Shown here piece by piece: positions 488 to 25,064 of a stretch of DNA of 64,000 bases. The translations under genes were made by a program, and so were the position numbers. The notes under the pieces were generated by a model, which saw nothing but the letters and a program-made list of their open reading frames with translations, did no database searches and was not told where the DNA came from. Numbering within the stretch: the stretch's first letter is position 1; each line of letters opens with the position of its first letter. This DNA is from Tubiluchus corallicola (lineage: Eukaryota; Animalia; Priapulida): NCBI GenBank assembly GCA_030141605.1, contig JAQGDQ010000686.1, positions 33,852 to 97,851 of the forward strand. Reading direction: 5' to 3'.

Positions 488-727
488 CCTTAATTTATCC
501 TGTAAATCTGTCCTCCTTGCCCAAACTGTCAACGCCAAGTACACCACCCAAGTGAAACTGATGAACAATACGATCACGGGATTCTTAAAAAACGTAGCAA
601 ATAGTACGACGTCTTTGATGGGGTTAATTTTGTTCGGTGCGGCTATGAGAAGTCTGACGGCACCTGCAAAACTGCTCATGTGATAACAGTGACAGTGAAG
701 TCTGCTCATAGACGTCTGTGGACCAAC
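488..727 (-). CDS. PKD1/polycystin-1-like exon: second half of GPS + TM1
   Basis: Acceptor ttacag, donor gtatgc, 240 nt, phase 0-0. Encodes VGPQTSMSRLHCHCYHMSSFAG...APNKINP...KNPVIVLFISFTWVVYLALTVWARRTD, matching the polycystin pattern CxCxH(L/M)(T/S)xF...PNxI...NP...Y...WARRxD. Confidence 0.88.
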
Positions 728-812
728 CTGTAACGATAAATATACGAAATAAGAGCAGGTTTAAAACCAATCAAAATATTTACAAGAACCACTTGTTTGC
801 GATGCTCAAGAG

Positions 813-1000
813 ATTCAAATTCAAATTCAGTTTATTTCACCAGCAAAGTACAATAACACAAATAGACATGTACAACGTTTTGTATAATTGGAAAAAAAAC
901 AAAAAAAAAATAATTTCAGACTCCCTAGAAATACTATATTAAGGAGTTGAAGTTTGCCACACGGTACCTAAGAAGGGGACCTTGTTAAGCCACCATGAAA
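813..1000 (-). mobile_element. Possible 3' end fragment of a LINE/SINE
   Basis: A (TTTGAA)n-type tail on the - strand (ttcaaattcaaattc) follows AATAAA and T-rich UTR-like sequence. The inner boundary is uncertain. Confidence 0.3.
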
Positions 1001-1995
1001 TGTGAAATAAAGAATGAAGAAGGTAGATGATGAGAAAAGAAGAGACTAAAGAAGAGCTATGTTACAGTTAGTAGAAAGAAAACAGAAGGAAAGAAGAAGT
1101 CAAAAGAAAACATAATAAGAAAACAATGGCCATGTTCAGGTGGCACACTGTCCCTTTTCCTAACTGTGAACTCAACTTGCCTGTTGACTTAAATAGGTCG
1201 AGCTAGGTCAGTTTCAGCTCGAAACACAGGTATTCTTATTGTAGAAGATCCTATTCTTTGTGGTGTAATTCTTTTGTAGAAATCTTATGATGATGAGAAA
1301 GATATACATATAATTATTTGTTCATAATTATGCTTAATTAATTTAGTGTCTGTATGTGTGTAAAGAATGCCGATTGTCTTTTTATATACTGAGCAAATTT
1401 TGTCGGCGTGACGGTGTCATTATTTATTAGTTTGAAAACACTCTAAATTTCCTTCGTAATTTAATTTCCCAGATTAAACGACGACATTTATGAAGCAGAT
1501 ATTGGATGCTGAATTATCATTTTGCGTACTTCAGGAGAGCAAATAAACAGCCTATGAACCTCGCTGGTATAATTACTTTTACTCAGTTCCTATTTATTTG
1601 AAAAAATGCAATTTCGCAGAATGCTTCGATCTTTATAATCGATCATCCTCAAGTTTTTCAATGCTTAGCATTGAACATGGTCAATCGTATAAAGTCGAAG
1701 CATTTAGTGAAGACGTGGGTGTCTTTTTAGCTAAAATTACTTACGCATATATAACAGACTTCACATGATTTATTTGTTAGTTGTCCACAAGGCAACGAAT
1801 GATGATTCAGTGCTATTAAAAAATTAAGAAAGTTGAGGCTTCAGTCACAGTTAAATAAGGGGGCGCGTAAAGAAATGGTTGCCCCCCCCCATACTGTACA
1901 AAAGAAACTTGAAAGAGTAGATAAAGCCCAACGAAACTATTAGAAAGACCATGTAATTGTGAGTAAAGAATATTTATCGTAATGTCTGGTAGACT

Positions 1996-2408
1996 CATAT
2001 CTCGATTTGCCAGACCTCACTTTTATGGATCTCTGAAAATTCGGACAAAATCTGGTCCGTAAGAAAGCCCCGCATCTACGGACAGGCCGTTGTTTCACGT
2101 ACTGACTGCTAGGTGGCAGTCTGTCATTTTGTTTGTATGACGTACATCAGTGTAACCACATGTATATCTCTATATGTAAAAATATAGAGTCAATTATGCT
2201 GAGTCATTTGAGTCAATTGCCGACAGTTTTTGTACGCTTTTGCTTAGGAGAGGCCTGTACTAGTTTTTGAGACAACTAGGTGATTGATTCTACATTACCT
2301 TGAGTCTAATACATGGTACCTACAGTATTAGTTTAGTATCGGAAAATACGGACATTCGGCAAATTCGTACCGACGCCTCCCCGTTTTTGGCCTGCAAACC
2401 GAGATATG
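1996..2408. mobile_element. MITE-like non-autonomous DNA transposon
   Basis: Imperfect ~20-bp terminal inverted repeats CATATCTCGATTTGCCAGACC / GGCCTGCAAACCGAGATATG, with ACT on both flanks (possible 3-bp TSD). Superfamily not assigned. Confidence 0.55.
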
Positions 2409-3209
2409 ACTGCGATGACTGCGTTGTCAATAAATAATGTTATGACAATAAATGGGAGCTCCGGGCACCATGAATAGACAAGGACATGACTCATGCTGAT
2501 TTCTCAAAGGGAATGGAGTCATGACATATTTCTTCTAAACATTGATTGATTTTTGATTTCTAACAATAAAAAATGGAAAAAATTAAAAAAAACACGTTAA
2601 ACGAGAAATATTTTAATGTCTACAATATTAAAATATACTACAGTTGTCTGCTTGTGATAACTTTTAAATGCAATTTTATGTTCAAATTTAAACTTAATCT
2701 CAATAGTTTACACACCTTATTCTGAAATCTTCGTCAAGATAATTGCGCATATTACTAATAGCAACATTACTTACAGGGTGGTTGACTTTGGTAACTTTTA
2801 GTTTTTTGCCACTCTTTCACCAATCACTTGATCATCATTAACTCAGATAATTTCTTCATTTAATAATCTTGTCACTTTGTATCATATTATCATTTCGTGC
2901 CCTGTGTTTTTCTTGTAAAAAAGGTGAAAAATAAAGATACTTACTTACTTACTTACAATGAAGCCATCGTTTCTGCACACCCTGTACAAGTGCATTTTAG
3001 TAATTGCATGAACCATGCATACAGAATGAAAATCAATCTTTTAAAACGATGGCACATTAGGGGATTACAGCCTTGCTTGAATGTTTTGCTGCTACGATGA
3101 AAGAAATTAACATTACCTACCGAGAACAAATCACTTGACTTAAATTCCATTAGTATTACATCAGGCCCGATTCATTTAGCTTTAGAATTTATAAAAGCAA
3201 TGCAACTAC

Positions 3210-3307
3210 CTGACAGCCGGCACTAGACCATTGTTCTGTTGATGTGTTCCAGTACAAACACTGAGCTCTGTAGACAGATAGGGTAAGATTCAGATGCACT
3301 CGGTCGG
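3210..3307 (-). CDS. PKD1-like exon: first half of GPS
   Basis: Acceptor ttttag, donor gtagtt, 98 nt, phase 1-0. Encodes DRVHLNLTLSVYRAQCLYWNTSTEQWSSAGCQ (CxYW...W...GC) and joins in frame to exon 488-727. Confidence 0.88.
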
Positions 3308-3625
3308 CTAAAAACACAGCAAACGTGATAGACAATCTTCAATTCAATGCAAAAATATGTTCTTTGATCTATAGCAAAAAGCACAGGGACTGTATTGAAA
3401 GTGTCAACACCACCTCTGCAAATACTGTGCAAATATGAATGGGTCTATCGTTGATGTTGAAGTTGTTTATTAGAAATTTCAACGTCCAACATGCGTGCCT
3501 TCATTAGTCTAGTGTCAGCAAAAAATTTAAGTAGATTCAATTAACGAAAAGCAACGAACCACAGATGCTATAATGCGTGCAGTGATGGTAAAACATTTGC
3601 ATTCTGGTGAATTAAATAACTCTAA

Positions 3626-4508
3626 CGGGGCGTTCAAACTGGCGAGTTTTCTCATCGAGTAACTCGTAAGCAGTTCAGACTAGACAGCAAAACTTGCTAC
3701 GAGTTACTCTCTGACAGCAAGTGCAAGCTACTCACTACGCACGACTTCCTATTCACAGCAAGAAGAGTTGAGAGTAACTCACCGAGGCATTCACACTAGG
3801 CAGGAAATCAACTCGCAGCAATTGTTGGAGAGTTTGCATTTCTTGTCGACAGTAACTCACTGAGGCGTTCACACTAGGCAGTAAGTCAACTCGCAGCAAC
3901 TGTTGGAAACTTTTCAATACTTGCCAACAGTAACTCACCGAGGCGTTCACACTAGCCAGTAAATCAATTCGTAGCAATTGTTGGAAACTTTTCAATACTT
4001 GCCAACAGTAACTCACCGAGACGTTCACACTAGGCAGTAAATCGACTTGCAGCAATTGTTGGAGAGTTTGCATTTCTTGTCGACAGTAACTCACCGAGAC
4101 GTTCACACTAGGCAATAAATCAACTTGCAGCAATTGTTGGAGAGTTTGCATTTCTTGTCGACAGTAACTCACCGAGACGTTCACACTAGGCAATAAATCA
4201 ACTTGCAGCAACTGTTGGAGACTTTTCAACACTTGCCAACAGTAACTCACTGAAGAGTTCACACTAGGCAGTAAATCAACTTGCAGCAATTGTTGGAGAG
4301 TTTGCATTTCTTGTCGACAGTAACTCACCGAGAGGTTCACACTAGGCAGGAAATCAACTCGCAGCAACTGTTGGAGACTTTTCACTACTTGCCAACAGTA
4401 ATTCACTGAGGCGTTCACACTAGGCAGTAAATCAAAGCAGTTCACACTTGCTAGTCTGCTGTCAGAGACAAAACTTGGGACAGAAAACTCGCTTATCTGA
4501 ATGCACCA
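3626..4508. mobile_element. PIF/Harbinger-like non-autonomous element with internal 78-bp tandem array
   Basis: Imperfect ~26-bp TIRs GGGGCGTTCAAACTGGCGAGTTTTCT / AGAAAACTCGCTTATCTGAATGCACC. TAA on both sides (3623-3625, 4509-4511). Subterminal inverted tctctgacagca motif. Confidence 0.7.
3773..4435. repeat. 78-bp tandem repeat, ~8.5 units, two unit variants
   Basis: The motif agtaactcac recurs at 3773, 3851, 3929, 4007, 4085 and onward. Each unit contains a ggcgttcacactag-like motif. Confidence 0.92.
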
Positions 4509-5054
4509 TAAGATCCTCTGCGTACCCATTCATGTTTGTTTAGTATTTGCTAAAAGTGAATATCAAGTCACTTAAAGGTAAAATGCACACAATTTGACAC
4601 TGTTGTTAGCAATGGTTGATAAAAGTAAGCATGACACTTGTTACGTATCAAAAGACTCCAGATTGTTTCCACAGACTTTATTTATTACAAGCAGGCGTAG
4701 ACTTACAACTTACAACTGTTTGGCCACAAGTTAATTAATTATAAAAAACTACTGACAACTCATACGTCTCTTAAACTTTTCTTAAACAGATTAGTTTTAA
4801 ATCTCCAATCTGCTTTGATGAATTTATTCGTAGATGCTGCCATACTAGAAAGTTTCCGCTGCTGTCAAACAAGGAAAAATTCCCATTCTAAAACAATGTC
4901 AGTATGGTCACAGTCAGAATCACGCCCAGCGTGTTTTGAAGTGTTTAAAAGATTTTTTTAGACATCACGAGACGAGATAAAACGCAGTGAAAATATGACA
5001 CAGACATTTACGCATGCAAATGCTCTACTTTTGCAAACCTTTCGAACGTTTTTC

Positions 5055-7900
5055 ATTTATCATGAAACTAAATCATATATATCCGAATATCTCAATATGG
5101 TATTCTGCAATCAATTCACACCCATTATAACACGACCAACTAGACTTACTCACACATCCAAAACACTTATAGATCACATCTACACAAATAACCTAAAAGA
5201 CTACATCATTCCAGGCATTATACTTTACCAAATCGCTGACCACTTGCCTATCTTTTGCATTGTCAAAAATTCAATTAGTAAACGTGCGAACTCAAAAGTA
5301 ACAATCCGTGACAAGAGTAAATTCAATCAAGACGCTTTCTTAAATGACTTAACTTATAAACTAAACAACGAATCTTTTGTGACAATGTCAACAAACGAAG
5401 CATTTGAAAAATTCATGAATATAATTACAGAAACTGTTAACTACCATGCCCCGTATAAAACCTTGTCGAGAAAACAAACTAAGACATTTTACAAACCCTG
5501 GTTAACTCAAGGTATCCTAACTTCTATCAGAAAAAAAAAGTCAATTATACAAAACTCATAAATTATCCGACAGTTTATACAAAAATGAATATTATCGTAC
5601 ATATTGTAATAAACTAAATCGAATAAAAGAACAGTCAAAACGTAACTATTACTCAAAAGTGCTCCAAGGAAATAAAAATAATATGCGACTAACATGGAAA
5701 ACCATAAATGAAATTACAAACTGTAAAGTGAAAAACCATTTTCAACCTAACAAGTTAACACAAAATGGTAATGAGTACAATAACCATAAGGATATAAGTG
5801 AAATACTAAACCAGTTTTTTAGTAACATAGGTAGCAATATGGCGAGAAAGATACCATACACTGAACTAAAATTTGATTCTTTTTTGAAGAACCCAGTAAA
5901 TAGCACATTTTTTATGTACCCTATATTAGAAAATGAAACATGTGTGGAAATCAATAAGTTAAACATTAATAAATCTGCAGGTCCAGAGAATATTCCAATT
6001 TATTTTTATAAACTAGCTGTCAGCATTATTACACCATACTTAACGACACTTTATAATAAATCGATTACTGATGGCATATTTCCTAACATTTTAAAACTAG
6101 CGAAAGTAATTCCAATTTATAAGTCTGAATCACCTGAAAATCCCACCAACTATAGACCTATATCTTTACTCTCACCGGTTGCCAAAATATTTGAAAAACT
6201 CATCTTTATCCGGCTTGACAAATTCATTTCAACAAACAAAATACTATCAGAACACCAATTTGGTTTCAGGAAAAATCATTCTACTGCCTTAGCTGTATCT
6301 GAACTAACCGATAGAATTCTTAATAATATTGACAAAAATGTATTTGTGTGTGGCATCTTCCTAGATCTGTCCAAGGCTTTTGACACTGTACAACATAATA
6401 TATTACTCCAAAAAATGAAACATTATGGTATTAGAGGACTATCCCAAAATTTCTTTGCATCTTACTTGCACAACAGACAACAGTACACTTCCATTGGAGA
6501 TACTAGCTCAAATCTAACTACTATAACATGTGGAGTACCACAAGGCTCTACTCTAGGCCCGATATTGTTTCTTTTGTACATAAATGATCTTGTAAACTGT
6601 TCAAACTTCCACACTAGAATGTTTGCAGATGACACTAATCTATTCTTAACAGATACAAAGATAATTAATTTACAAACTTCAGTTAACAGTGAATTGCATA
6701 AGATTAATCAGTGGATGAAAGCTAACAAACTGTCTATTAACTATAAAAAGACAAAATACATGCTGATTACGCCTGGCCGCAAAACAGACGCATATGAAAA
6801 TTTCCAGATTTCAATGAATAATCAAATATTAACTAGGTCTAAAGAAATTAAATACCTCGGTATGTTCATTGATGATAACTTAACATGGTCTACACAAACA
6901 AAACACATAACCTACAAAATTAGCAAAATCAAGGGCATAATTGCGAGGATAAGACACTACGTAAATACAGATGTAATAAAACTAATATACCATGCTTTGG
7001 TTTATTCTTATCTTCACTATGGGATTCTTTCCTGGGGCACTGCATCTTCAAATACTTTAAAACCGATACAAACTCATCAAAACATTATAGTTAAGCTGAT
7101 GACATTTTCTGGTAGACGGGAACATGCAACGCCATCCTACATTAAATTGGGCCTCTTAAAACTGAATGATATCTACAAACTCGAGCTTGCAAAATTTGTA
7201 TACAAATTTAAGAATAACTTACTACCAGAATTGTTTCTAAATTACTATACGCCAGCATCCGATATTCACAGTTACAACACTAGGTTTTCTACTAACAGTT
7301 CTTTCTTTATCGAACGATTTAATACATCTAAGGGTCAAACGTCGTTAAAATATCAGGGATCAGTATTATGGAACTCTCTACCTGCTCATATAACTTCTTT
7401 ACCTCTGCATTCGCTAAAAAAACAGTACGCTAAGGCACTTCTTGAAGCTTACAAATAAATCAGTTTTTTGTCTGTTAGATGTACATTCTTATGGTAACTT
7501 TTGCTTAAAAACATTTTTATGAGGTGCAAACTCACTTTTTCGCTGCTGTATTTTTGTTTTTGTATTTCTGTACGTTTGTGTATTTATTAGATGTATTTAT
7601 CAGAAACAATTGTAAGGTATTTTGCTTAGTAGTTCGTAAATTTGTCATGGTTTTTGATTTTTGTCTTTTGCTGTTGTATTTTTGTTTTTTGTATTTCTGC
7701 ACGTTTATGTATTTTTTAATATAGCTGTGTCTACTGTCCTTAGCGTCCTTTTGTTTACTGTCCTTTGAGAAGGGTGGTTGACTCGATAACCTTTGGTTTT
7801 TCGCCACCCTTTCTCCTATGTTTGTTTGTATTTTTGTGTATTTTATTGTCAAATTATTGTATATGGAGGAAAATAAATTACTATTACTATTACTATTACT
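5055..7900 (+). mobile_element. 5'-truncated CR1/L2-group LINE (APE endonuclease C-terminus + reverse transcriptase)
   Basis: Endonuclease end (TLIDHIYTN...ADHLPIF). RT motifs YRPISLL, QFGFR, FLDLSKAFD, GVPQGSTLGP, FADD, YLG in ORF 5659-7458, with frameshift(s) near 5530-5660. AATAAA plus (TTACTA)n tail. TSD GTTTTTC at 5048-5054 and 7901-7907; the empty site is visible in the paralogous GPCR upstream regions. Confidence 0.93.
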
Positions 7901-7926
7901 GTTTTTCGAAATGCGATGTTTTGGAC

Positions 7927-8826
7927 ATGAATACATCTTCATTACTGGTCGATTTTGCCACCATGAACACAACAGAAAGTGGGGTTACATTTTTAGCAAA
8001 GTCTGTAATTTCAATAAAAGTTCTGCTGCTAATACTATTAGGTATTACTATAATAGTTGGAAACTTATTAGTTCTGATTGCAGTTTGTAAGATTCCTCGT
8101 TTACAAACTAAAACAAATGTTCTTGTTGCATCTCTTGCTGTAACTGATTTACTTGTTGGTTTATCAATGCCTGCAGAAGTGACCTCATTATTGTATCCAG
8201 CTGTGTTGTCAAACCAAGTGTTTGTATTCGTGCTGTACATATTTGAAGTTGGAATGGTGAATGCAAGCATATTACACTTGTGTCTGATAGCAGTTGAAAG
8301 ACATGTGGCTGTTGTTCATCCATTCAAGTATCACACCAACGTGAGAAAAGAAACCATTGTTGCTGCACTTTCCATTACTTGGATTTTTGCTTTAACTGAG
8401 GCAGTTATTTATGTTATTTTCAAATACATTTTGAATGTACAAAGTCTATTAATCGTTGATGTTACTGTAGCATTTTATTTACCAGTGCTAACGATTCTTG
8501 TGCTCTATGCCCTAATTTGGAGAACTGCAAGAAGGCACATCTTACAGATACATAGTCAAATTCAAGGAAGCCAGGCAAATGTGATGGAGATGAAAGCAAC
8601 AAAAAGTTTAGCCATTGTTACCTTTGCTTTTCTGGTGTGTTGGGGTCCCTTTTCTCTGTATCAGACAGTTTGTTATATATTGTTTTACGAAGAGAATCAG
8701 GAAGTAACTCAGTTTTTATATGTATTTGGATTTATCAACAGTGCCATTAATCCAATCGTGTATGCACTGTCTAGCACTGATTTTAGATGGGCTGTCAAAA
8801 AAATGTTGCTTTCACGTGAATTGTAA
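7927..8826 (+). CDS. Class A orphan GPCR copy 1 (299 aa, single exon)
   Basis: Seven hydrophobic segments with motifs GN, LAVTD, ERH, HPFKY, FYLP, CWGP, NSAINPIVY. Start inferred from paralogs; the upstream part of the tracked ORF is LINE 3' UTR. Confidence 0.9.
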   Translation: MNTSSLLVDFATMNTTESGVTFLAKSVISIKVLLLILLGITIIVGNLLVLIAVCKIPRLQTKTNVLVASLAVTDLLVGLSMPAEVTSLLYPAVLSNQVFVFVLYIFEVGMVNASILHLCLIAVERHVAVVHPFKYHTNVRKETIVAALSITWIFALTEAVIYVIFKYILNVQSLLIVDVTVAFYLPVLTILVLYALIWRTARRHILQIHSQIQGSQANVMEMKATKSLAIVTFAFLVCWGPFSLYQTVCYILFYEENQEVTQFLYVFGFINSAINPIVYALSSTDFRWAVKKMLLSREL

Positions 8827-9164
8827 AACTTAATGCGAAAAACTTTCACGTGAATTGCTTTCCGTTAATTATAGCTGAGTTAATAGCACGAAACTGAGAA
8901 ACCGCACAAGTGAGCAAAATTCTTCAAATAGAGCACACAATTGACCACGTTTTTTGAAGCCAACATCCAAGTAATGTTCCAAAGATGTGCTAAAAAATTG
9001 AGCAACATTTTATGTGTAATAGATCGTCAGATTAATGAGCTTGATATAATGAAGCAGCCAAATAGTTTACACACACTTAGCAACATATTTAAGTTGAACA
9101 CACAGTGTCCATTTATAATAGTCTAAGGTTATAATGTTGTATGCATGTTATACAAATGTTATAT

Positions 9165-9745
9165 ATATTGCACCATTGTGAGAACGAATGACATTATGCT
9201 GCATCATTGTGAAAATGAATGACATTATAACGCATCATTGTGAAAATGAATGACATTATAACGCATCATTGTGAGAATGAATGACATTATATAGCATCAC
9301 TGTGAGAATGAATGACATTGTACTGCATCATTGTGAGAATAAATGACATTATACTGCATCATTGTGAGAATAAATGACATTATATTGCATCACTGTAAGA
9401 ATAAATGACATTATATTGCATCATTGTGAGAATGAATAACATCATACTGCATCATTGCAAGAATAAATGACATTATACTGCATCATTGTGAAAATGAATG
9501 ACATTATATTGCATCATTGTGAGAGTAAATGACATTATACTGCATCATTGTAAGAATGAATGACATTATATTGCATCATTGTGAGAATGAATGACATTAT
9601 ATAGCATCACTGTGAGAATGAATGACATTGTACTGCATCATTTTGAGAATGAATGACATTATACTGCATCACTGTGAGAATGAATGACATTATACTGTAT
9701 CATTGTGAAAATGAATGACATTATACTGTATCATGTGAAAATGAT
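9165..9745. repeat. 31-bp minisatellite (TGCATCATTGTGAGAATGAATGACATTATAC), ~18-19 units
   Basis: Direct tandem units ending ~150 bp upstream of GPCR copy 2. Confidence 0.93.
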
Positions 9746-9900
9746 CATACGTAGTTTGCTTGTATTTCAGACAGTGATTTCCTTGTAAATGTGTTTTCAG
9801 ATTTTCGATTGCAGTGAAAATACGACAAGGACATTTACGAATGCAAATGCTCTACTTTTGCAAACCTTTCGAACGTTTTTCCAAATGCGATGTTGTGAAC

Positions 9901-10800
9901 ATGAATACATCTTCGTTACTGGTCGATTTTGCCACAATGAACACAACAGAATGTGGGGTTACATTTTTAGCAAAGTCTGTGATTTCAATAAAAGTTCTGC
10001 TGCTAATACTATTAGGCATTGCTATAATAGCTGGAAACTTATTAGTTCTGATTGCAGTTTGTAAGATTCCTCGTTTACAAACTAAAACAAATGTTCTTGT
10101 TGCATCTCTTGCTGTAACTGATTTACTTGTTGGTTTATCAATGCCTGCAGAAGTGACCACAGTGTTGTATCCAGCTGTGTTGTCAAACCAAGTGTTTGTA
10201 TTGGTACTGTTCATAGTTGAAGATGGGATAGTGAATGCAAGTGCATTAAACTTGTGTCTGATAGCAGCTGAAAGATATGTGGTTGTTGTTCATCCATTCA
10301 AGTATCACAAAATCGTGAGAAAAGAAACCATAGTTGCTGCACTTTCCATTACTTGGATTTTTGCTTTAACTGTGGCAGCGGTTTGTGTTATTTTCTTTTT
10401 TGTTTTCAATAAACGTGGTCTGTTAGTCGTTGATGCCACTTTAACATTTTATTTACCGATGTTTGCGATTTTTGTACTGTATGTGCTAATTTGGAGAACT
10501 GCAAGAAGGCACGTCTTGCAGATACACAGCCAAGGTCTAGAAAGCCAGGCAAACATGATGCAAATGAAAGCAACAAAAACTTTAGCCATTGTTACCTTTA
10601 CTTTTCTGGTATGTTGGGGTCCCTTTTCTCTGTATCAGACAGTTTGTTATATATTGTCTTACGAACCTAAATATGATATAGTTCAGGCTTTATATATAAT
10701 TGGATTTATCAACAGTGCCATTAATCCAATCGTGTATGCACTGTCTAGCACTGATTTTAGATGGGCTTTCAAAAAAATGTTGCTTTCACGTGAATTGTAA
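9901..10800 (+). CDS. Class A orphan GPCR copy 2 (299 aa)
   Basis: Intact ORF with GN, LAVTD, ERY, FYLP, CWGP, NPIVY. Confidence 0.92.
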   Translation: MNTSSLLVDFATMNTTECGVTFLAKSVISIKVLLLILLGIAIIAGNLLVLIAVCKIPRLQTKTNVLVASLAVTDLLVGLSMPAEVTTVLYPAVLSNQVFVLVLFIVEDGIVNASALNLCLIAAERYVVVVHPFKYHKIVRKETIVAALSITWIFALTVAAVCVIFFFVFNKRGLLVVDATLTFYLPMFAIFVLYVLIWRTARRHVLQIHSQGLESQANMMQMKATKTLAIVTFTFLVCWGPFSLYQTVCYILSYEPKYDIVQALYIIGFINSAINPIVYALSSTDFRWAFKKMLLSREL

Positions 10801-11857
10801 AACTTAATGCGAAAAACTTTCACGTGAATTGCTTTCACTTAATGATAACTGCGTTAATAGCATGAAACTGAGAAACCGCACGAGTCAGCAAAATTCTTCA
10901 AATAGAGCACACAATTGACCAAGTTTTTTGAAGCGAACATCCAAGTAATGTTCCAAAGATGTGCTACAAAATTGAGTATCATTTTATGTGTAACAGATCG
11001 TCAGATTAATGAGCTTGATATAATGAAGCAGCCAAACAGTTTACACACACTTAGTAACACATTTAAGTTGATCAAACAATGTCTAATTATAATAGTCTCA
11101 GGTTATATTGTTGTATGCATGTTTACTAAAACATTATTCTGGCTCGGCATATCCACAGAACTAATCTTCCATGTTGCACAGTAGTTGCGTTACATCTTTC
11201 TGCGTGTGCACTTAGCGTTTATAAAGAGAAGGTTTGTTATCATAGCTATTATGCTTTTTAATGTATATAACATCATGCTGAATCAATACTGCGTGAGAAT
11301 GATAATTTTATCGTTTATATGTGTTGTGTTTGTTTCTAGCAACCTTGCAGATGGTACCATGCATGGCCATTTTTAGATTTGCCATAGCTGGCTTTGTAGT
11401 GAGACGTTACATAAACAGTCGCGGTTGGTAACTTGTTCTGTTTTCTTGTAGTAAAAATTTGTAGTTCTCTACACTTGCTTGAAGGTCTGACTTTTATTGA
11501 CGACACATAAAAACTTCTCTGATCATGAACTCGACTTCGTTTTTGGTTGCAGTAATTGTTTTGAATTAAATTCAAACTTAGTTTACATAGGTGTGGAATG
11601 TTTATTGTATACATTTATGAAGTACATACAGCCAGCCGGAAATCAGACGTCATACACTTGCAGTTTAAGCTAGAGCAAATTTATGGCTGCCGTCTAACAA
11701 TACACGCTGCACTTACCTAATTGCTGAAATGCTTTCGTGAATCAAAGTAAACTTGCATAGCAAACGGGTATTTGTTCTGCAAATGTACTTTGTGGTTATA
11801 AAATCCCTATGAATAGAAATGCAGCTAGGATGATCCTAGCTGTTGTGCTTTTTAATA

Positions 11858-12388: not shown

Positions 12389-12542
12389 ATACATAGTTTG
12401 CTTGTATTTCTGACAGTGATTTCCTTGTAAATGCGTTTTCAGATTTTCGATTGCAGTGAAAATATGACACAGACATTTACGCATGCAAATGTTCTACTTT
12501 TGCAAACCTTTCGAACGTTTTTCGAAATGCAATGTTGTGAAC

Positions 12543-14187: not shown

Positions 14188-15006
14188 GATTTTACTGCAG
14201 TAAATTTAACGGAAGACGAGGCTTCGCGATTATGAGCATTGCTATAACTGTCGGAAACTTGTTAGTTCTGATGGCAGTTTGTAAGATTTCTCGTCTGCAA
14301 ACTAAAACAAATGCTCTCATTGCATCACTTGCAGTAACTGACTTGTTGGTTTATCAATGCCAGTAGAGATTACTGCAGTGTTGTATTTGGTTCTGAAATC
14401 AAATGCAGTATTTGTAGCGGTGCAGCAGGTATTTGAATTGGGATTGATATATGCAAGCATGTTTCACCTGTGTCTGATAGCAGCTGAAAGATACATAGCT
14501 GTTGTTCATCCATTCAAATATCACAGCATCATGAGAAAAGAAGCCATTGTTGCTGCACTTTGCATTACATGGATTGTTGCTTTCATTGAGGCAATTATTA
14601 ATGATATCATCAGAATCATCTTCAAAGCACAGAGTCTTTTGATTCTTGATGATATTTTAGCATTTTATTTACCATGTTCTCGATTGTTATACTGTATGTT
14701 CTAATTTGGAAAACTGCAAGAAGGCACGTTTTACAGATACACAGTCAGTATCAGGGAAGCCAGGCAAACGTGATGCAAATGAAAGCAACAAAAACTTTAG
14801 CCATTGTTACCTTTGCTTTTCTAGTATGTTGGGGACCTGAGTATGTGTATGAGACGTTTTGTTACATATTTTCTTATGAAGAGGAACATACTAGTACGAT
14901 ATCGATGCCATTTGCACTTGGATTAACCAACAGTGCCGTTAATCTAATCATATACGCATTTTCTAATACTGACTTCAAAATGGCTTTCAAGGAAATTTTG
15001 TTTTGA
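14188..15006 (+). pseudogene. GPCR copy 4, pseudogene
   Basis: The N-terminus is deleted and fused to the duplicated 3' flank of copy 3. Frameshifts in TM2 (~14345) and TM5 (~14675). NP changed to NL in TM7. Confidence 0.85.
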
Positions 15007-16692
15007 CAAACAGTGTCAGAAAATTGCATTAATCACATGCAACTAACATTCCTAACATAGAGCATACATGTAAACAGCATTTTTGAATAGGAATAGATGA
15101 TCAAACGCATTTTTCAGGCAAGTGGTTATTATATGTGCTTAGCAACCATTTAAGCAATGTTGAGACTGTCTCGATTAATGGTGACTAGTTGCAGTACTTT
15201 AGTTCTTAGCAGTTCCGTTTGGGGTTTGCAGTGTCCCGAATCATGTAATAAGCTACTGACAAGATAAATAGCAATGCCAAATTTTGTAACGATGTAAACT
15301 GACTTGTTAATAAATGCATTACAGATAAATAAATATTTAAATGATGTGAACTGTAGTAATGTCAAAATGCAGACACTAGATTTAACAATTTTTGTATATA
15401 ATGCCAAATAATGAGATTTTTCACCACCTACAATGAAGGTAGTGATCGTTTTTTGTTTAAACGTACTTATTTGTTTCCATTATCATCTGTAAAGCAGTTA
15501 TGCTACTTGACCAAAGATTTTTCTCAATGTATTGCAAACATAAACCAGTTTTGTACCCAACTAACTAGAGAAAAACTGTCTAAACAATTTGTTGATACAT
15601 TAAATAAGAGTCTGTTATTGTGTTTAAACTATATATTGTATGCACTGTTGTATCTATCTTTATTGTATTGATAGTGGTATAATATATTGATATTGAACAT
15701 GTTGTTACAATTGGTTTTTTATCGTGTTCAATGAAATGTTTGCAGTACGTAATGTTTTACCAGTCTATTCTGATCAGAAATGAAAAGAAATGAAAGGAAG
15801 TTTGCACAGGTGTGGTAATACGTACACATTTCAGACACCTAACTGTTGAAGCATTAAAGTAGTCTTTGGACAATAGTTTAACAGGTGGGATAATATGTAC
15901 ACATCACATGCATTAACTGTGGAAGTGCTCTTTCACATGGCACTTCGTTTTTATGATTGGACAGTTGTTTCCTAGGTGCTGTAGGACGTGTTATGACTCG
16001 TGTATTTCACAAATATCTCAGACTTAAATCTGCAGGCCTATGTGTAATCTTTACCTGTGTACATAATTTTTTAATCTATTAAGCTTATAATTGGTTTTAA
16101 CCACTAGCTCTCATTTATCTTTTATCATTTGCTGTGTCCAACTAACTTTATGGACATTTTCATGTGTGAAATAAAATTGAAATTTAATTCAAAACTTACG
16201 TAGGTGTGGTAATGTTTATTGTATGCATCTACGAAGTCATCCAGCCAGAAATCAGATGTCATACACCTACTGTCTAAGCTAGAGAAAATTTATTGCCACC
16301 GTCTAACAATACATATTGCTCTTGCCTAATAGCTGAAATGTTTTCGTGATCCAAAGTAAACTTACAAAGTAAAGAGCAATTGTTCTGCCGATGTGCTTTG
16401 TGTCTATAAAATTCTATGGCTAAAAACATTTTCATTGTGGCTTGTTAATATAAATGACATTATATTGGATCATTGTGAGAATGACTGTGTATAGTTTGAT
16501 TGTATTTCTGATAATGCTTTTCTTGTAAATGTATTTCCCATTTGCCATTGCAATGAAAATACAACACGGACATTTGCTAAAGTCAACTGAATGCTCGGCT
16601 ACCTGTTCATTCTGTCTTTCATGACAGGTGTGTTTATCAATGAAAATGCTCTGCTTTTGCAAACCTTTCTGACTTTTTTCGAATGCGATGCT

Positions 16693-17673
16693 ATGAACAT
16701 GAATACGTCTTCATTTTTGGTTGATTTTGCTACTATGAATACAACAGAAAACGGGGTTACATATTTAGCAAAGTCTGTGACATCAATAAAAGTTCTGCTG
16801 TTCCTCTTATTGGGTATTTCTATAATAGGTGGAAACTTTTTAGTACTGTTTGCAATTTGTAAGTTTCCTCGTTTACAAACTAAAACAAATGTTCTTGTTG
16901 CTTCACTTGCTGTAACTGATTTACTTGTTGGCTTATCTACGTCAGCAGAAGTGACCACAGTGTTGTATCCAGCTGTGGCATTAAACCAAGTGTTTGTATT
17001 GGTGCAGTACATATTTTTACTAGGAATGATGACTGCAAGTACACTAAACTTGTGTCTCATAGCAGCTGAAAGATATGTGGCTGTTGTTCATCCTTTCAAG
17101 TATCAAACCATCGTGAGAAAAGAAGCCATTGTTGCAGCACTTTGTATTTCTTGGACTTTTGCTTTAACTGAGACAGTTATTTATGTTATTTTCGTATACA
17201 TTTTGAATGCACAAAGTCTATTTTTCGTTGATGTTACTGTAACATTTTATTTACCAGTGCTAACAATTCTTGTGCTCTATGCCCTAATTTGGAAAACTGC
17301 AAGAAGGCATGTCTTACAGATACACAGTCAAGGTCTAGAAAGCCAGGCAAACGTGATACAAATGAAAGCAACAAAAACATTAGCCGTTGTTACATTTGCT
17401 TTTCTGGCATGTTGTGGTCCCATTTCTCTGTATCAGACAGTTTGTTATATATTGCCTTATGAAGAGAATCTTGAAGTAACTCATTTTTTACTTGCATTCG
17501 TATGCACCAATAGTGCCATTAATCCAATCGTGTATGCACTGTCTAGCACAGATTTTAGATGGGCTTTCAAAAAAATTTTGTTTTCGCATCAAATGTCTTG
17601 TAACTGCGTTAATAGCATAAAACTGAGAAACCGCACAAGTGAGCAAAATTCTTCAAATAGAGCACACAATTGA
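16693..17673 (+). CDS. Class A orphan GPCR copy 5 (~326 aa, extended C-tail)
   Basis: Intact ORF. CWGP is changed to CCGP and position 3.32 is Leu. C-tail SHQMSCNCVNS...RAHN. Confidence 0.85.
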   Translation: MNMNTSSFLVDFATMNTTENGVTYLAKSVTSIKVLLFLLLGISIIGGNFLVLFAICKFPRLQTKTNVLVASLAVTDLLVGLSTSAEVTTVLYPAVALNQVFVLVQYIFLLGMMTASTLNLCLIAAERYVAVVHPFKYQTIVRKEAIVAALCISWTFALTETVIYVIFVYILNAQSLFFVDVTVTFYLPVLTILVLYALIWKTARRHVLQIHSQGLESQANVIQMKATKTLAVVTFAFLACCGPISLYQTVCYILPYEENLEVTHFLLAFVCTNSAINPIVYALSSTDFRWAFKKILFSHQMSCNCVNSIKLRNRTSEQNSSNRAHN

Positions 17674-17819
17674 CCAAGTTCCTCAAAACGACCATTCCGG
17701 GAGCATAATGTTCCAGAAATGTGCTACACATCTAAGCAGCGCTTTCGTGTAGTAACCGATTGAAGATTAAAGAGCTGGAAATAAGTAACACAACTGAACA
17801 ACAATCATGAAATGGAGAA

Positions 17820-18895
17820 CAACCAAACAACAAGCCTGAAGCAGAGCACACAACTAAATAATAAGCCTGAAGCAGAGCACACAACTTAACAAGCCTGAAG
17901 CAGAGCACACAACTGAACAACAAGCCTGAAGCGGAGCACACAACTGAACAACAAGCCTGAAGCAGAGCACACAACTTAACAAGCCTGAAGCGGAGCACAC
18001 AACTGAACAACAAGCCTGAAGCGGAGCACACAACTGAACAACAAGCCTGAAGCAGAGCACACAACTGAACAACAAGCCTGGAGTGGAGCACACAACTGAA
18101 CAACAAGCCTGAAGCAGAGCACACAACTGAACAAGCCTGAAGCGGAGCACACAACTGAACAAGCCTGAAGCGGAGCACACAACCAAACAACAAGCCTGAA
18201 GCAGAGCACACAACTGAACAAGCCTGAAGCGGAGCACACAACTGAACAACAAGCCTGGAGTGGAGCACACAACTGAACAACAAGCCTGAAGCGGAGCACA
18301 CAACTGAACAATAAACCTGAAGCAGAGCACACAACTGAACAAGCCTGAAGCGGAGCACACAACTGAACAACAAGCCTGAAGCAGAGCACACAACTGAACA
18401 ATAAACCTGAAGCGGAGCAAACAACTGAACAATAAACCTGAAGCGGAGCACACAACTGAACAACAAGCCTGAAGCGGAGCACACAACTGAACAAGCCTGA
18501 AGCGGAGCACACAACTGAACAACAAGCCTGAAGCAGAGCACACAACTGAACAAGCCTGAAGCGGAGCACACAACCAAACAACAAGCCTGAAGTGGAGCAC
18601 ACAACTGAACAATAAACTAGAAGTGGAGCACACAACCAAACAACAAGCCTGAAGCGGAGCACACAACCAAACAACAAGCCTGAAGTGGAGCACACAACTG
18701 AACAACAAGCCTGGAGTGGAGCACACAACTGAACAACAAGCCTAGAAGCAGAGCACACAACTGAAGATCAAGCCTGAAGCGGAGCACACAACCAAACAAC
18801 AAGCCTGAAGCGGAGCACACAACTGAACAACAAGCCTGAAGCAGAGCACACAACTGAACAACAAGCATCTGAGGTGGAGCCCACAACGGAACAAC
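17820..18895. repeat. 31/28-bp minisatellite (AAGCCTGAAGCGGAGCACACAACTGAAC[AAC])
   Basis: About 35 tandem units downstream of GPCR copy 5. Confidence 0.95.
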
Positions 18896-18899
18896 ATTT

Positions 18900-19221
18900 T
18901 ATTTTTGGTGTGTATTCAACTGCCGAATAAATACACTATTTACTGTAAATGGTAATTTTTTATGATTTATAATTTTCTTTTAATGTTAGAATTAATATTT
19001 TTAATATATTTTTAAACATTTTGTGATTTTTGCCAAATTTATCAAATCTATACATTACTGTACAATATGTACTACGCATGTGCAAAAATGCTTTAGACGG
19101 AGTACCGCAAAACAGTGAAACAGCGAAAATACCTCGATAAATATTTTACATTAATATTTTTGAAAACCCGCAAAACAGCGAGTCCGCGATAAACGAACCG
19201 CGACGTAGCGAGGGAACATTG
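18900..19221. mobile_element. Right-end fragment of a Tc1/mariner (Tigger/pogo-like) element
   Basis: Ends ...GAACCGCGACGTAGCGAGGGAACATTG|TA, resembling pogo/Tigger TIRs with a TA target. The left end was not found. Confidence 0.45.
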
Positions 19222-19451
19222 TACAAAAAAAACATAAGTGTAGAGGTGCATCACTTGTTCACACGGGCCCGACTTGCAACCATTTTGTCTTACGGCCAAT
19301 TTGCTGGAACCGACCGTGGTCATAATTCAACGCCAACCTGTATACAAGCAGTTAAATAAAGCAAATCTTATATGCCAAACCAGGAATTTTTAATATAATA
19401 GATAAGGGGACAGAGAAAAAGAAACAAAAAGAAAAAGCTAAAATACCATAC

Positions 19452-19569
19452 TAGATGTTCTGAATGTAAAAGGGAAACAGGCAAGCGTCCGAGTGTCATT
19501 CGGCTGACCGCTGTTATACCATTCCATATATGGACAAGTGAACTGTTGGCTCGTGCTGAACACATCTAC
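19452..19569 (-). CDS. PKD1-like exon: PLAT domain part 3
   Basis: Acceptor cactag, donor gtatgg, 118 nt, phase 0-1. Encodes VDVFSTSQQFTCPYMEWYNSGQPNDTRTLACFPFTFRTS, resembling the PLAT C-terminus (VxV...FPCxxW...RxL). Phase matches exon 3210-3307. Confidence 0.68.
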
Positions 19570-20378: not shown

Positions 20379-20481
20379 CTTTTTCACTATTGGCAAAGAA
20401 TCAGTTATCCCATTTCCATGCCATATGCTTACGCTCCGTACGAGTCCCAGGTATTTCAATTCAAATTTAAACTCGGCGACT
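20379..20481 (-). CDS. PKD1-like exon: PLAT domain part 2
   Basis: Acceptor ctgcag, donor gtaatt, 103 nt, phase 2-0. Encodes VAEFKFELKYLGLVRSVSIWHGNGITDSLPIVKK (F...LGxxxxxxIWHxN motif of PLAT/LH2). Confidence 0.75.
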
Positions 20482-21706: not shown

Positions 21707-21848
21707 TCTCCAGGGACAAAACCTTGTCCATCGGGATTAAGCGTGAGCACGGAAGTGTTGCCATGGTAACCGTGTAACATCACGGAAATATTGGTGCTGT
21801 TACTGCTTTCGTTGAAGGTGTGGATTACAAGGCGATAAACAGCTGATG
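21707..21848 (-). CDS. PKD1-like exon: PLAT domain part 1
   Basis: Acceptor ttgtag, donor gtaagt, 142 nt, phase 1-2. Encodes SAVYRLVIHTFNESSNSTNISVMLHGYHGNTSVLTLNPDGQGFVPG (YxxxxxT...VxLxGxxGxT...L...FxxG). Confidence 0.78.
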
Positions 21849-22463: not shown

Positions 22464-22534
<71 letters not shown>

Positions 22535-22600: not shown

Positions 22601-22699
22601 AAAGAACTTTTGTTGGTGTAGTGAAGGACGAGAAAAGCTATGAGAAGCCAAGCAGCTCAGTTAGTAAATAATAAAACTCTTATACAACTACTCATATAC

Positions 22700-23123
22700 C
22701 AGAATTGATCACATTAGAATTGTACAGTTTGGACACATCATCACAATCCACTGATCGGTTCTGGCAATGTTCCAGCCAGCGAGTATAGCAGGGCTGTCTC
22801 TGTATACACGAGTTGGCTCTACATCTGCTCGAATTTGAAAAACATGAAATGTCCGCACGGCTGTCACCACAGCGACTCTTGACTTTGACAAAGCACTTCT
22901 CAGCTTCCGCTCGGCATGACAACTGTGCCTTGTAACAGGAGGGAATAAGGTAACCGTTTTCATTAATCATCACACCCAAATGGTACATCGTCTGAGTGTC
23001 ATTATCATTGTGAATGGTAAGGATGTTCTCCAGTTCAGGACACTTCTGAAGATTTGGAATTTCGTGAATGTCATCTCCTTCTATTATATCATCTATAGAT
23101 GGTTTGAATTCTCTGATAACCAC
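22700..23123 (-). CDS. PKD1-like exon: GAIN-region beta strands + Cys-rich segment
   Basis: Acceptor ttttag, donor gtatat, 424 nt, phase 0-1. Encodes VVIREFKPSIDD...TMYHLGV...(10-Cys segment)...NSNVINS. Confidence 0.75.
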
Positions 23124-24370
23124 CTAAAAATAATATCAATGTTATAGGGAAAATAAGTGTGCACACCACTTGGCTTTGAGACTACAGTTTTACCATTGTT
23201 CCTACCACTGTTGTTTGGAAAACTGCTCTTGTTTGCTTACAAGTGCTTGTTCTTATATGTTATTTAATCGTAAATCGTTTCGCTTTTTATGCCAAAATTT
23301 TTGAATGTTTGAAGTTGTTGGACGAAGAATGTGAACAGCCTAACAAGTATAACAAGTATTTAAGGAAGCGTCAGTATGTCTTTATATTCTTTTCAGTATG
23401 AATGCTGATTGGACTACATGTAAAACTCAGATGTTCTTAGGCTAAAGATTAATGATTGTACCGAGTTGTAATCACCACAGGAAATGTGAAATCACTCTGA
23501 ACTCATGTCTAATGTCTCCTTAAACTGTGGATTTATGAAAGACCTATGTTTGCTGGTTGTTTTTTTTACACTAATTTTACTATTCAGTTTCTTTTATTAG
23601 TAAATCAGTAATTGTTAATAACAATAACACATTTATTGACGATTTACAAGCCATGCAATTGTCTATAGTATGGCTAGCATCTTGCCCAATTGGCCATGTA
23701 ATTAGCTAAAGTAGGCTTCTTTCATAGATGTATATATAACATAGTAATTTTTGTGTGGCAAAAGGCCTAGCTAGCCAGAAGCCACATGATGCTGACAATC
23801 GCTACGTTGCTCCTTTGCTTATTATCGAGGATGACCATGGGCACAGTATAATTAGGTATGTCTAAAGTCTTTCTGTATTAGAACTAACGTATACATTTAA
23901 AGTAATCATGTCGTAATTTAGTCATATTGTAATGTCTTTCCTATTTACTAAAATGTAGGTCTCATATAATAGACTTTTATTCCTAAACATGTACTAATTA
24001 CTCTTGTTTCATCATCATTGTAAATATCATCATTGTAAAAATGTAATATTCATCAATAATTATGCGAATATTTTAATTACTTGTTCTTTTTTTAGATATA
24101 AAAGTAAAAGTAAATACATTTTGCTACAAATTAAACTCAATTCAGTATTTGTTTGCATCGAAAATTGCGAACATAATTGAATTCGGGGCATTCAGTTGCC
24201 CAGGTTTTGCTCTCCCGCCTACTTGTACAGAAATTCAAACTTTTTACATTCAGTTGAAAAGTTAAAAACATTCAACTACATCGTTAAAATGAGATAAAAT
24301 ATATAAATTATTTCGAAGAATAAAAATCAACCATTCATCATAATCAAATCAAGCGTTTTTCACAACTTAC

Positions 24371-24489
24371 TTTTAGAGGAATGTCGCCAGCATGCAGCTT
24401 GAGAATGACATGAGCATGAGGATCTACTATTAAACTGTAAACTGAAAATTCGCTGATGTTTTCCGCAAATAATATATCAATATCTGCAC
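24371..24489 (-). CDS. PKD1-like exon (GAIN region)
   Basis: Acceptor ttttag, donor gtaagt, 119 nt, phase 1-0. Encodes ADIDILFAENISEFSVYSLIVDPHAHVILKLHAGDIPLK and is in phase with both neighbours. Confidence 0.72.
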
Positions 24490-24619
24490 CTAAAACAAGA
24501 TTTGAAAAATGAACACAAGCACAGCAAGTACCACACCTGATCTTATGAACGTATCAGAACAAGCAAATTTGTAAAAATTAGAAAAAAATGTTTAATGCAA
24601 TAAGACCTTTTTAAAATAC

Positions 24620-24776
24620 CTGATATGTGCAAAAAGTATTCCAAGGGGTCTGTTAATTGTATATTATCGGAGGCTTGTTGATTTTCATGTTCACTAATAG
24701 ATAGGCTGATTACAGGAGTGGTGACCAAACTTGAAGTGTTACCCCACACGTATGGATTCTCCTTCATATAGTATGT
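24620..24776 (-). CDS. PKD1-like exon (GAIN region, NPY/F-W motif)
   Basis: Acceptor tttcag, donor gtattt, 157 nt, phase 0-1. Encodes TYYMKENPYVWGNTSSLVTTPVISLSI...LTDPLEYFL, matching the NP(F/Y)xW...V.S.V.SL...L..PI.I pattern of polycystin GAIN regions. Confidence 0.8.
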
Positions 24777-24972
24777 CTGAAAAATAATTACTTGGTTTCA
24801 ACTGGAGGTACACAGATTAAGACACATAGATCCGCTAAGCACTGAAATAACGATGTCAGTAGTATCTGTTTGACACATTAAAGAGTTTTAAAGTTCACGC
24901 CATTCCAGTATCATATCAGTACACAAATAATCTCAAAGTACTAATTTAAATTCAGAAAATGTGTGAAATAAC

Positions 24973-25064
24973 CTTTAGAGAAAACACTTCATCGTGGTCA
25001 GTCACTAGTGCTTGTGCTGAAGGCAAGTTGAAGTGGTCCGTATCCGTCATCGGTATATCCGAAT
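24973..25064 (-). CDS. PKD1-like exon (GAIN region, FxLP motif)
   Basis: Acceptor ctttag, donor gttatt, 92 nt, phase 1-0. Encodes SDIPMTDTDHFNLPSAQALVTDHDEVFSLK. Confidence 0.62.

What the first reader, a model, noticed from the sequence alone, without database searches (positions are those of the whole stretch)
488..25064. Polycystin-1-like gene with a PLAT domain placed N-terminal of the GPS (predicted extracellular)
Seen: nine - strand GT-AG exons (25064-24973, 24776-24620, 24489-24371, 23123-22700, 21848-21707, 20481-20379, 19569-19452, 3307-3210, 727-488) join without stops, with junction phases 0,1,0,1,2,0,1,0. The order is GAIN-type sequence, Cys-rich segment, PLAT/LH2, GPS (CLYW..W..GC..CHCYHM|SSF), TM1. 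The PLAT carries five N-glycosylation sequons (NES, NST, NIS, NTS, NDT). Established: in PKD1, PKD1L1-3, PKDREJ and LOV-1 the PLAT domain is cytoplasmic, directly after TM1. Inference: a PLAT module has been inserted into the GAIN region and faces outside the cell, where it could bind lipid or ligand on a fragment released by GPS autoproteolysis. I do not recognise this architecture from described polycystins.
Basis: partly seen in the sequence, partly recalled or inferred. Interest (0 to 1): 0.88.

Follow-up and report, generated by a model that had tools for sequence, protein, structure and literature searches.

The report
PLAT domain nested inside polycystin GAIN
An unidentified animal's polycystin-1-like gene carries three extra exons for a PLAT domain, a module that normally lies inside the cell, placed within the self-cutting outer GAIN region, where it is predicted to face outward as a sugar-coated accessory module that has likely lost calcium and lipid binding; no RNA yet confirms the splicing.

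Summary
The nine exons are AG/GT-bounded and join into a 497-aa open frame with the stated phases. Exons 5-7 match a PLAT profile almost end to end (39.1 bits; best of 2000 shuffles 6.7). Exons 1-4a and 8-9 are the two halves of one PKD1-like GAIN/GPS/TM1 unit (104.7 bits) and share intron positions with other PKD1-like genes. The Cys-rich segment and PLAT stretch one variable loop to 219 residues, against 15-75 in 23 homologues. In a homologue's model this loop is the last hairpin of the PKD1-specific extra beta-sandwich. The PLAT has 5 sequons (at most 3 in 1593 other PLATs) and lacks the canonical loop motifs, which argues against lipid binding. The PLAT exons form a phase 1-1 cassette that can be skipped in frame. 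No RNA holder was listed, so splicing is unconfirmed. No second example was found, but the searches were weak. Verdict: a real, apparently undescribed variant of a known receptor family.

The parts
24973..25064 (-). Exon 1 (aa 1-30): GAIN subdomain-B-type strand. The upstream intron is phase 1 and the preceding exon was not found in the window.
   Evidence: upstream search
24620..24776 (-). Exon 2 (aa 31-83): GAIN strands with the NP-Y-x-W motif. It starts at the same phase-0 position as the large GAIN exon of many homologous loci.
   Evidence: 20.8 bits on its own
24371..24489 (-). Exon 3 (aa 83-122): start of the PKD1-specific extra beta-sandwich
   Evidence: homologue model
22956..23123 (-). 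Exon 4, 5' part (aa 123-178): extra beta-sandwich up to its penultimate strand
22700..22955 (-). Exon 4, 3' part (aa 179-264): inserted segment with 10 Cys (aa 185-249) and no recognised family. Ends in phase 1.
   Evidence: no usable match
21707..21848 (-). Exon 5 (aa 264-311): PLAT N-terminal part, profile positions 3-50; sequons N276, N280, N283, N294; phases 1 to 2
20379..20481 (-). Exon 6 (aa 311-345): PLAT middle, profile positions 54-79; phases 2 to 0
   Evidence: present with 1 difference over 417 bases in run X1
19452..19569 (-). Exon 7 (aa 346-385): PLAT C-terminal strands; sequon N369; Cys357 and Cys376; phases 0 to 1. A competing GT donor lies 5 bases downstream (exon end 19447).
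3308..19451 (-). 16,144-base phase-1 intron. It hosts five antisense single-exon class A GPCR copies and a LINE-type reverse transcriptase; none of 573 phase 1-1 exon candidates scored above 1.8 bits on GAIN, PLAT or full PKD1-like profiles.
3210..3307 (-). Exon 8 (aa 385-417): last strand of the extra beta-sandwich running into GAIN strand S10 (C401-L-Y403-W404), then W..GC
   Evidence: (35.9 bits)
488..727 (-). Exon 9 (aa 418-497): GPS end with H433-M434|S435 (predicted cut between bases 677 and 676), stalk, TM1 (about aa 468-487, bases 577-518) and R-x-D. Both flanking introns are at positions conserved in PKD1-like loci.
   Evidence: (48.5 bits)

Best explanation
This is part of a polycystin-1-like receptor gene in which a 10-Cys segment and a three-exon PLAT cassette lie inside one variable loop of the GAIN region, so the PLAT is predicted to face outside the cell as a glycosylated accessory module that has likely lost calcium and lipid binding. 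Shown in the DNA: exon order, open frame, PLAT homology, GAIN homology on both sides, and one TM after the GPS. Inferred steps: (1) exons 5-7 entered a phase-1 intron as a symmetric 1-1 module and are spliced in, in at least some transcripts. (2) The module loops out of the last hairpin of the PKD1-specific extra beta-sandwich and leaves the GAIN core intact. (3) The GPS self-cleaves at H-M|S, since it has H-x-S and a Tyr at the S10.49 position. (4) The PLAT travels on the N-terminal fragment, which stays non-covalently docked on the membrane fragment. (5) It serves as a glycan-coated protein-binding or spacer module near the membrane. The strand after it runs straight into S10, so binding or pull on it would be passed to the GPS and tethered-agonist region.
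For: Open frame and canonical sites at all 8 junctions. PLAT profile positions 6-117 of 134 are collinear across exons 5-7 at 39.1 bits vs at most 6.7 in shuffles. The GAIN profile matches aa 9-178 and aa 385-495 around one insertion of about 205 residues; the N-terminal half alone scores 21.8 and 27.4 bits vs at most 7.0 in 1000 shuffles. No second GPS or GAIN part was found in the window. The loop is 219 residues vs 15-75 in 23 homologues. The homologue L104 model (pLDDT 82) places the loop between strands 398-407 and 416-432; it matches solved GAIN domains at Z 19.9, and the extra sandwich matches GOLD-type folds at Z about 9. PMC11697300 (passages) describes an extra beta-sandwich containing an extension of S10 in PKD1 GAINs. 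Sequons: 5 vs at most 3 in 1530 LOXHD1-type, 35 PKD1-like cytoplasmic and 28 bacterial PLATs; 50 of 20000 own-composition shuffles reach 5. Motifs GT[DTSN][AS], HD[NG] and the strand-6 Trp are absent here but present in 1147, 946 and 1495 of 1530 LOXHD1-type domains and in 33 of 35 PKD1-like ones. The domain is only about 25% identical to its nearest PLAT (branch 2.88) yet keeps its frame over three exons, which implies long selection (inference). Six loci (L066, L071, L086, L107, L114, L127) have a short phase-1 exon before the GPS exon, like exon 8.
Against: Skipping exons 5-7 keeps the frame (376 aa, no stop), so the DNA alone cannot show inclusion. The exon 7 donor matches the U1 consensus at only 5 of 9 positions, as does a competitor 5 bases on that would cause a stop at aa 391. 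Pfam recognised no PLAT in single exons; the PLAT call rests on my own profiles. The fold of the joined protein was not modelled. HMS occurs in 0 of 120 homologous loci (HLT 101, HLS 18, HMT 1), and H-x-S/T alone does not guarantee cleavage (PMC13062082, passages). That the lost motifs are the Ca/lipid-binding loops is recalled from lipoxygenase and PKD1 work and was not tested here; PMC7436259 (passages) notes Ca-independent membrane binding in C2-like domains. Step 5 has no direct evidence.
Confidence: 0.58

Rival explanations
1. The PLAT exons are a minor or silent cassette. The main transcript joins exon 4 directly to exon 8 and gives a PKD1-like GAIN with only the Cys-rich insert.
For: Exon 4 ends and exon 8 begins in phase 1. 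Skipping 5-7 gives 376 aa without a stop, and the other 6 skip combinations tested break the frame. The exon 7 donor is among the weakest of the nine by U1 match.
Against: All three exons keep canonical sites, compatible internal phases, raised GC (0.41-0.47 vs 0.35 for the window) and an open frame despite deep divergence. The sequon gain suggests exposure in the secretory pathway. The donor's intronic score (2.13) is above the median of 73 homologue donors (1.58).
Confidence: 0.17
2. The PLAT is extracellular and still binds Ca2+ and lipid, for example on a neighbouring membrane or vesicle, on a shed N-terminal fragment.
For: It is a full-length PLAT homologue. PLATs of PKD1 and lipoxygenases bind lipid (PMC9672506 and PMC7436259, passages). 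PLAT domains occur in Plasmodium LAP1 (PMC11285972, passages); extracellular PLATs in secreted lipases are recalled.
Against: The first loop has lost GT[DTSN][AS] and carries three sequons; HD[NG] and the conserved Trp are also lost. Glycans there would be expected to block membrane approach (inference).
Confidence: 0.12
3. The transcript ends at the PLAT. Exon 7 reads through or uses the donor at 19447, giving a secreted GAIN-half plus PLAT protein (or a decayed mRNA), and exons 8-9 are reached only by skipping.
For: Read-through stops 4 codons after the donor, with an AATAAA 548 bases downstream. The alternative donor gives a stop at aa 391. The next exon is 16 kb away behind an antisense GPCR array.
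Against: The extra beta-sandwich and GAIN core would lack their final strands. The 19452 donor scores above the alternative (2.13 vs -0.33) and gives the only in-frame join to exon 8. One AATAAA in 600 AT-rich bases is expected by chance (inference).
Confidence: 0.08
4. The arrangement is an assembly chimera of two paralogues, or a recent pseudogene in which a cytoplasmic PLAT landed by rearrangement.
For: No contig in run X1 spans the region (longest record 6714 bases), and the long intron is full of tandem duplicates.
Against: The window has no N. Exon 4 and exon 5 are only 851 bases apart. The PLAT is not a recent copy of a PKD1-like cytoplasmic PLAT: it scores 23.8 bits on that profile vs 38.2 on the LOXHD1-type profile, and its introns differ from those in the split cytoplasmic PLATs examined. 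Exons 6, 8 and most of 9 are present nearly unchanged in run X1, which may however be the source sample.
Confidence: 0.05

Closest known systems
Polycystin-1 family (PKD1, PKD1L1-3, PKDREJ, sea-urchin SpREJ, cnidarian and mollusc PKD1-like proteins)
   Same: PKD1-type GAIN with the extra beta-sandwich, GPS, stalk with Pro-Asn, TM1 and R-x-D. Intron positions are shared: AG 33 bases before the first GPS Cys codon in 111 of 118 loci, and a donor 21 bases after the Asp codon start is the commonest position (51 loci).
   Different: A PLAT and a 10-Cys segment lie before the GPS, inside the GAIN extension. Described members have the PLAT only after TM1, 'always found intracellularly' (PMC1934368, passages); 47 of 120 homologous loci showed a PLAT downstream and none a coding PLAT upstream. 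The stalk is 3 residues longer and the GPS reads HMS.
PLAT/LH2 domain (PF01477), LOXHD1-repeat type
   Same: Full-length profile match with the hydrophobic strand pattern kept
   Different: About 25% identity at best; conserved loop motifs and Trp lost; 5 sequons. The donor lineage is unresolved (long branch, no starred clade).
Adhesion GPCR GAIN domains (ADGRG6, ADGRL1/3, ADGRB2/3, CELSR1)
   Same: The homologue's model matches their GAIN folds at Z 17-20; the GPS chemistry is the same
   Different: They lack the extra beta-sandwich that hosts this insert. Their adhesion modules lie N-terminal of the GAIN rather than inside it (established knowledge).
PLAT-bearing secreted modular proteins such as Plasmodium LAP1
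   Same: Precedent for a PLAT as a module among adhesion-type domains (PMC11285972, passages; its secretory location is recalled)
   Different: No GAIN or GPS; the PLAT is not nested in another domain

Membership tests
Polycystin-1 / PKD1-like | GAIN domain with the PKD1-specific extra beta-sandwich | tested here: met
   104.7 bits to a profile of four intron-free PKD1-like ORFs, two of which were Pfam-typed as REJ-GPS-PLAT-Polycystin-channel; homologue fold. Only the part from aa 9 onward is in the window.
Polycystin-1 / PKD1-like | GPS motif with H-x-S/T, Cys and Trp just before TM1 | tested here: met
   C401, W404, W..GC, C-H-C-Y-H433-M-S435; Pfam GPS halves in exons 8 and 9, each below the cut-off alone
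Polycystin-1 / PKD1-like | TM1 after the GPS, with family intron positions | tested here: met
Polycystin-1 / PKD1-like | REJ module upstream of the GAIN | not testable with these tools
   No upstream exon was identified in 25065-64000; no genome is held
Polycystin-1 / PKD1-like | Cytoplasmic PLAT directly after TM1 | not testable with these tools
   The window ends 487 bases into the intron after exon 9
Polycystin-1 / PKD1-like | 11 TM helices with TOP and channel domain | not testable with these tools
   Outside the window
Polycystin-1 / PKD1-like | Autoproteolysis at the GPS | not testable with these tools
   Sequence is compatible (H-x-S, Tyr at S10.49; PMC13062082 and PMC11697300, passages); needs an experiment
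PLAT/LH2 domain | Profile similarity over the full domain | tested here: met
   39.1 bits over positions 6-117 of 134 on a profile seeded by 28 of 28 Pfam-confirmed PLATs; Pfam itself was run on single exons only, with no hit
PLAT/LH2 domain | Conserved loop motifs GT[DTSN][AS], HD[NG] and strand-6 Trp | tested here: not met
   All absent. They are common but not universal in the family (62-98% of LOXHD1-type domains), so this lowers the claim of canonical function more than that of homology.
PLAT/LH2 domain | Eight-stranded beta-sandwich fold | not testable with these tools
   The domain is split over three exons of 34-47 aa and was not folded
PLAT/LH2 domain | Ca2+/lipid or protein binding | not testable with these tools
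   Needs an assay
Adhesion GPCR | 7TM domain after the GPS | not testable with these tools
   Only TM1 is in the window; the extra beta-sandwich, stalk and intron positions point to PKD1-like instead

The most novel reading that the evidence does not exclude
A lineage of polycystin-1-like receptors has turned the normally cytoplasmic PLAT outward and nested it, with a new 10-Cys domain, in the hairpin that feeds GAIN strand S10. There it works as an alternatively spliced ligand or force handle that switches GPS cleavage or tethered-agonist exposure on and off.
Probability: 0.2. Interest if true: 0.75.

Novelty: new variant of a known kind. Interest (0 to 1): 0.5.

Why it matters
The PLAT of polycystin-1 proteins is described as always intracellular, and the GAIN region is usually treated as a compact unit with accessory domains attached in front of it. 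This gene suggests that the PKD1-specific beta-sandwich has a loop able to carry about 200 extra residues, including a whole foreign domain, right next to the strand that positions the catalytic His. That points to a natural site for testing how ligands or force reach the GPS in polycystins, and to a candidate site for tags or sensors. It would also be a case of a cytosolic membrane-binding domain re-used as a glycosylated extracellular module through a phase 1-1 exon cassette. The limits are that it is one gene in one unidentified animal, built from known parts, without transcript support.

Tried and rejected
RNA: no RNA holder was listed. X1 behaves as genomic DNA and X2 matched only repeats; no splice joint of the model was among the joints shown, 15 of 66 and 3. 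This is no evidence on expression.

Homologue searches: exon 4 (0 of 62 candidates) and exon 9 (0 of 277) gave nothing. The three hits of the representative search are unrelated repeat proteins and were rejected. The ESM Atlas was blank for exons 4 and 5. PDB sequence searches with exons 5 and 9 and the Cys segment were uninformative; exon 8 gave only weak adhesion-GPCR hits. Two viral loci and one were not followed.

Profiles and folds: the first PLAT profile held 9 non-PLAT rows among 45 and scored 9.5 bits. I kept 28 rows for A1, dropping those 9 and 8 near-duplicates. The single-sequence fold of exon 4 was unusable (pLDDT 44) and was not searched.

Origin of the PLAT: my idea that it shares introns with the cytoplasmic PKD1-like PLAT was not borne out. 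The PLAT tree was only the quick version and the clade test did not finish, so no donor is claimed.

Other examples: L066's upstream PLAT-like hit (12.4 bits) lies in an intronic degenerate repeat and was rejected. The metagenome screen is a weak test for other examples: it returned 120 of about 440 stretches, only 35 have 2 kb or more upstream, and the pattern's spacing would not match this gene's own longer stalk. The 111 of 118 intron count includes two intron-free ORFs whose codons give AG at that place.

Upstream exons: none found; the best of 687 candidates gained under 8 bits.

Literature: searches showed no paper describing a PLAT before the GPS in the listings or passages seen. Figures and supplements (for example the domain figures of PMC12980990 and PMC4890752, and the 2738 PKD1 GAIN models of PMC11697300) were not seen and may hold such cases.


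Full report
Observation. The window is 35% GC with no N, and no whole genome is held. The organism was not identified; long introns, retroelements and a class A GPCR array suggest an invertebrate animal (inference). All nine minus-strand exons are AG/GT-bounded and join into 497 codons without a stop, with phases 0,1,0,1,2,0,1,0. Pfam on single exons found only the two halves of the GPS.

Is it a PLAT? I collected 45 bacterial loci with a recalled motif and aligned 28; all 28 are Pfam PLAT. This alignment pulled 120 listed, mostly LOXHD1-named proteins, which gave 1530 domains and 230 representatives. The combined profile matches aa 265-373 over positions 6-117 of 134 at 39.1 bits; the best of 2000 shuffles reached 6.7. 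In an unjoined six-frame scan of the whole window, exon 5 (positions 3-50) and exon 6 (54-79) are the top two hits, though weak on their own (14.8 and 9.3 bits). The domain is divergent: at best 25% identical, on a branch of 2.88, with no resolved sister. It scores 38.2 bits on a LOXHD1-type profile and 23.8 on a profile of 35 cytoplasmic PKD1-like PLATs, and its introns differ from those in split cytoplasmic PLATs. A recent copy of the gene's own cytoplasmic PLAT is therefore unlikely, but the donor is unknown.

Where does it sit? A GPS motif scan of metagenome contigs gave 120 unnamed loci. Four have long intron-free frames, and two of these were typed by Pfam as REJ-GPS-PLAT-polycystin-channel. 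A profile of the four matches the joined protein from aa 9 to 495 at 104.7 bits with a single insertion of about 205 residues; shuffles reach 6.0. Exons 1-4a and 8-9 are thus complementary halves of one GAIN, and no other GAIN or GPS piece was found in the window. Gene structure agrees. The intron before exon 9 matches 111 of 118 loci, and the donor after TM1 matches the commonest position. Exon 2 starts where the large GAIN exon of many loci starts, and six loci have a short phase-1 exon like exon 8. The AlphaFold model of homologue L104 (pLDDT 82) matches solved GAIN domains (E 7e-10; Z 19.9). Its residues 302-429 form an extra sandwich resembling GOLD domains (Z about 9, a middling score). 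PMC11697300 (passages) reports such an extra beta-sandwich, containing an extension of S10, in PKD1 GAINs. The insertion maps to the hairpin between strands 398-407 and 416-432 of the model. That loop is 15-75 residues in 23 homologues and 219 here.

Which side of the membrane? The only hydrophobic segment is TM1 after the GPS, so the PLAT lies on the GAIN side, which is extracellular in this family (established knowledge; the signal peptide is outside the window). The PLAT has five sequons. None of 1530 LOXHD1-type (redundant), 35 PKD1-like cytoplasmic or 28 bacterial PLATs has more than three, 50 of 20000 composition shuffles reach five, and homologous GAIN exons average 3.0 per 117 aa. Three of the sequons replace the GT[DTSN][AS] loop, and HD[NG] and the conserved Trp are also lost. 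That these loops bind Ca2+ and lipid is recalled; PMC7436259 (passages) says only that Ca2+ binds at loops of the PLAT and that this is not universal.

Mechanism. My best reading is a PKD1-like receptor subunit whose GAIN folds around a looped-out module of 10-Cys segment plus PLAT and self-cleaves at H433-M434|S435. H-x-S/T and an aromatic at S10.49 (here Tyr403) are the described determinants, and they are not sufficient alone (PMC13062082, passages). The N-terminal fragment normally stays docked through the last strand (PMC9672506, passages), so the PLAT would be held near the membrane rather than simply released. I infer that it acts as a glycan-coated binding or spacer module. Its position just before the strand that becomes S10 would let binding or force reach the GPS. 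None of this functional part is shown.

Evidence against, and limits. Exons 5-7 total 363 bases between two phase-1 introns. Skipping them keeps the frame, and the other six skip combinations tested do not. This is the signature expected of a shuffled module, but it also means that inclusion needs RNA proof. The exon 7 donor has a competitor 5 bases on that would truncate the protein at aa 391. No RNA holder was listed. The REJ region, any cytoplasmic PLAT and the channel domain lie outside the window. The 10-Cys segment has no identified relatives.

Comparison and novelty. In described polycystin-1 proteins the PLAT follows TM1 and is intracellular (PMC1934368, PMC5318412, PMC9672506, PMC4890752 and PMC12980990; passages only, figures and supplements not seen). 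Among the 120 loci, 47 show a PLAT downstream of the GPS and none a coding PLAT upstream; the one upstream hit was intronic. In 39 loci (31 distinct) the loop is visibly short. This screen was biased against this gene's close kin. Nine paper searches showed no description. PMC12716839, PMC6294549, PMC8740744 and PMC4232524 (passages) added nothing on the point. Five look-ups of earlier scan notes found other PKD1-like variants but not this one. An unremarked occurrence in invertebrate proteome databases cannot be excluded.

Verdict. This is a new variant of a known kind; interest 0.5.

Noticed in passing
window 7816-17673 and 29704-62077, + strand: Array of 15 closely related single-exon rhodopsin-family GPCR copies (46-84% identity to the first), antisense to the PKD1-like gene. 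Five are nested in the 16-kb intron and ten lie upstream, perhaps in a further intron; several are frameshifted or truncated.
   Followed up: partly
window 4962-7458, + strand: LINE-type element with a 645-aa reverse transcriptase frame (RVT_1, E 6e-35) inside the long intron. Similar-looking broken frames at 27510-29054 were seen by eye only.
   Followed up: partly
window 42599-43822, + strand: Pao/BEL retrotransposon fragment (Peptidase_A17 and weak RVT_1)
   Followed up: partly
window 3773-4435: 78-base tandem repeat (8.5 copies) giving a 258-aa open frame on the minus strand about 460 bases before exon 8, with plausible splice sites. Probably a minisatellite, but it could be exonised.
   Followed up: no
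alignment A2, columns about 515-600 (e.g. L078, L126, L085): The loop that carries the PLAT here holds one or two furin-type R-x-K/R-R sites around a Cys pair in 16 of 23 homologues (counted by eye). This suggests a second, protease-mediated cut inside the GAIN extension of many invertebrate PKD1-like proteins.
   Followed up: no
L104 model residues 302-429: The PKD1-specific extra beta-sandwich matches GOLD-domain structures (p24, SEC14-like) at Z about 9. I did not see this likeness named in the passages read.
   Followed up: partly
L066, about 100-350 bases upstream of the GPS motif: Degenerate repeats resembling a piece of a cytoplasmic PLAT inside the intron before the GPS exon
   Followed up: partly
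window 9164-9744, 11860-12386, 17788-18896, 26940-27543: 31- and 38-base minisatellites; the two 31-base arrays at 9.2 and 11.9 kb were duplicated along with the GPCR units
   Followed up: no
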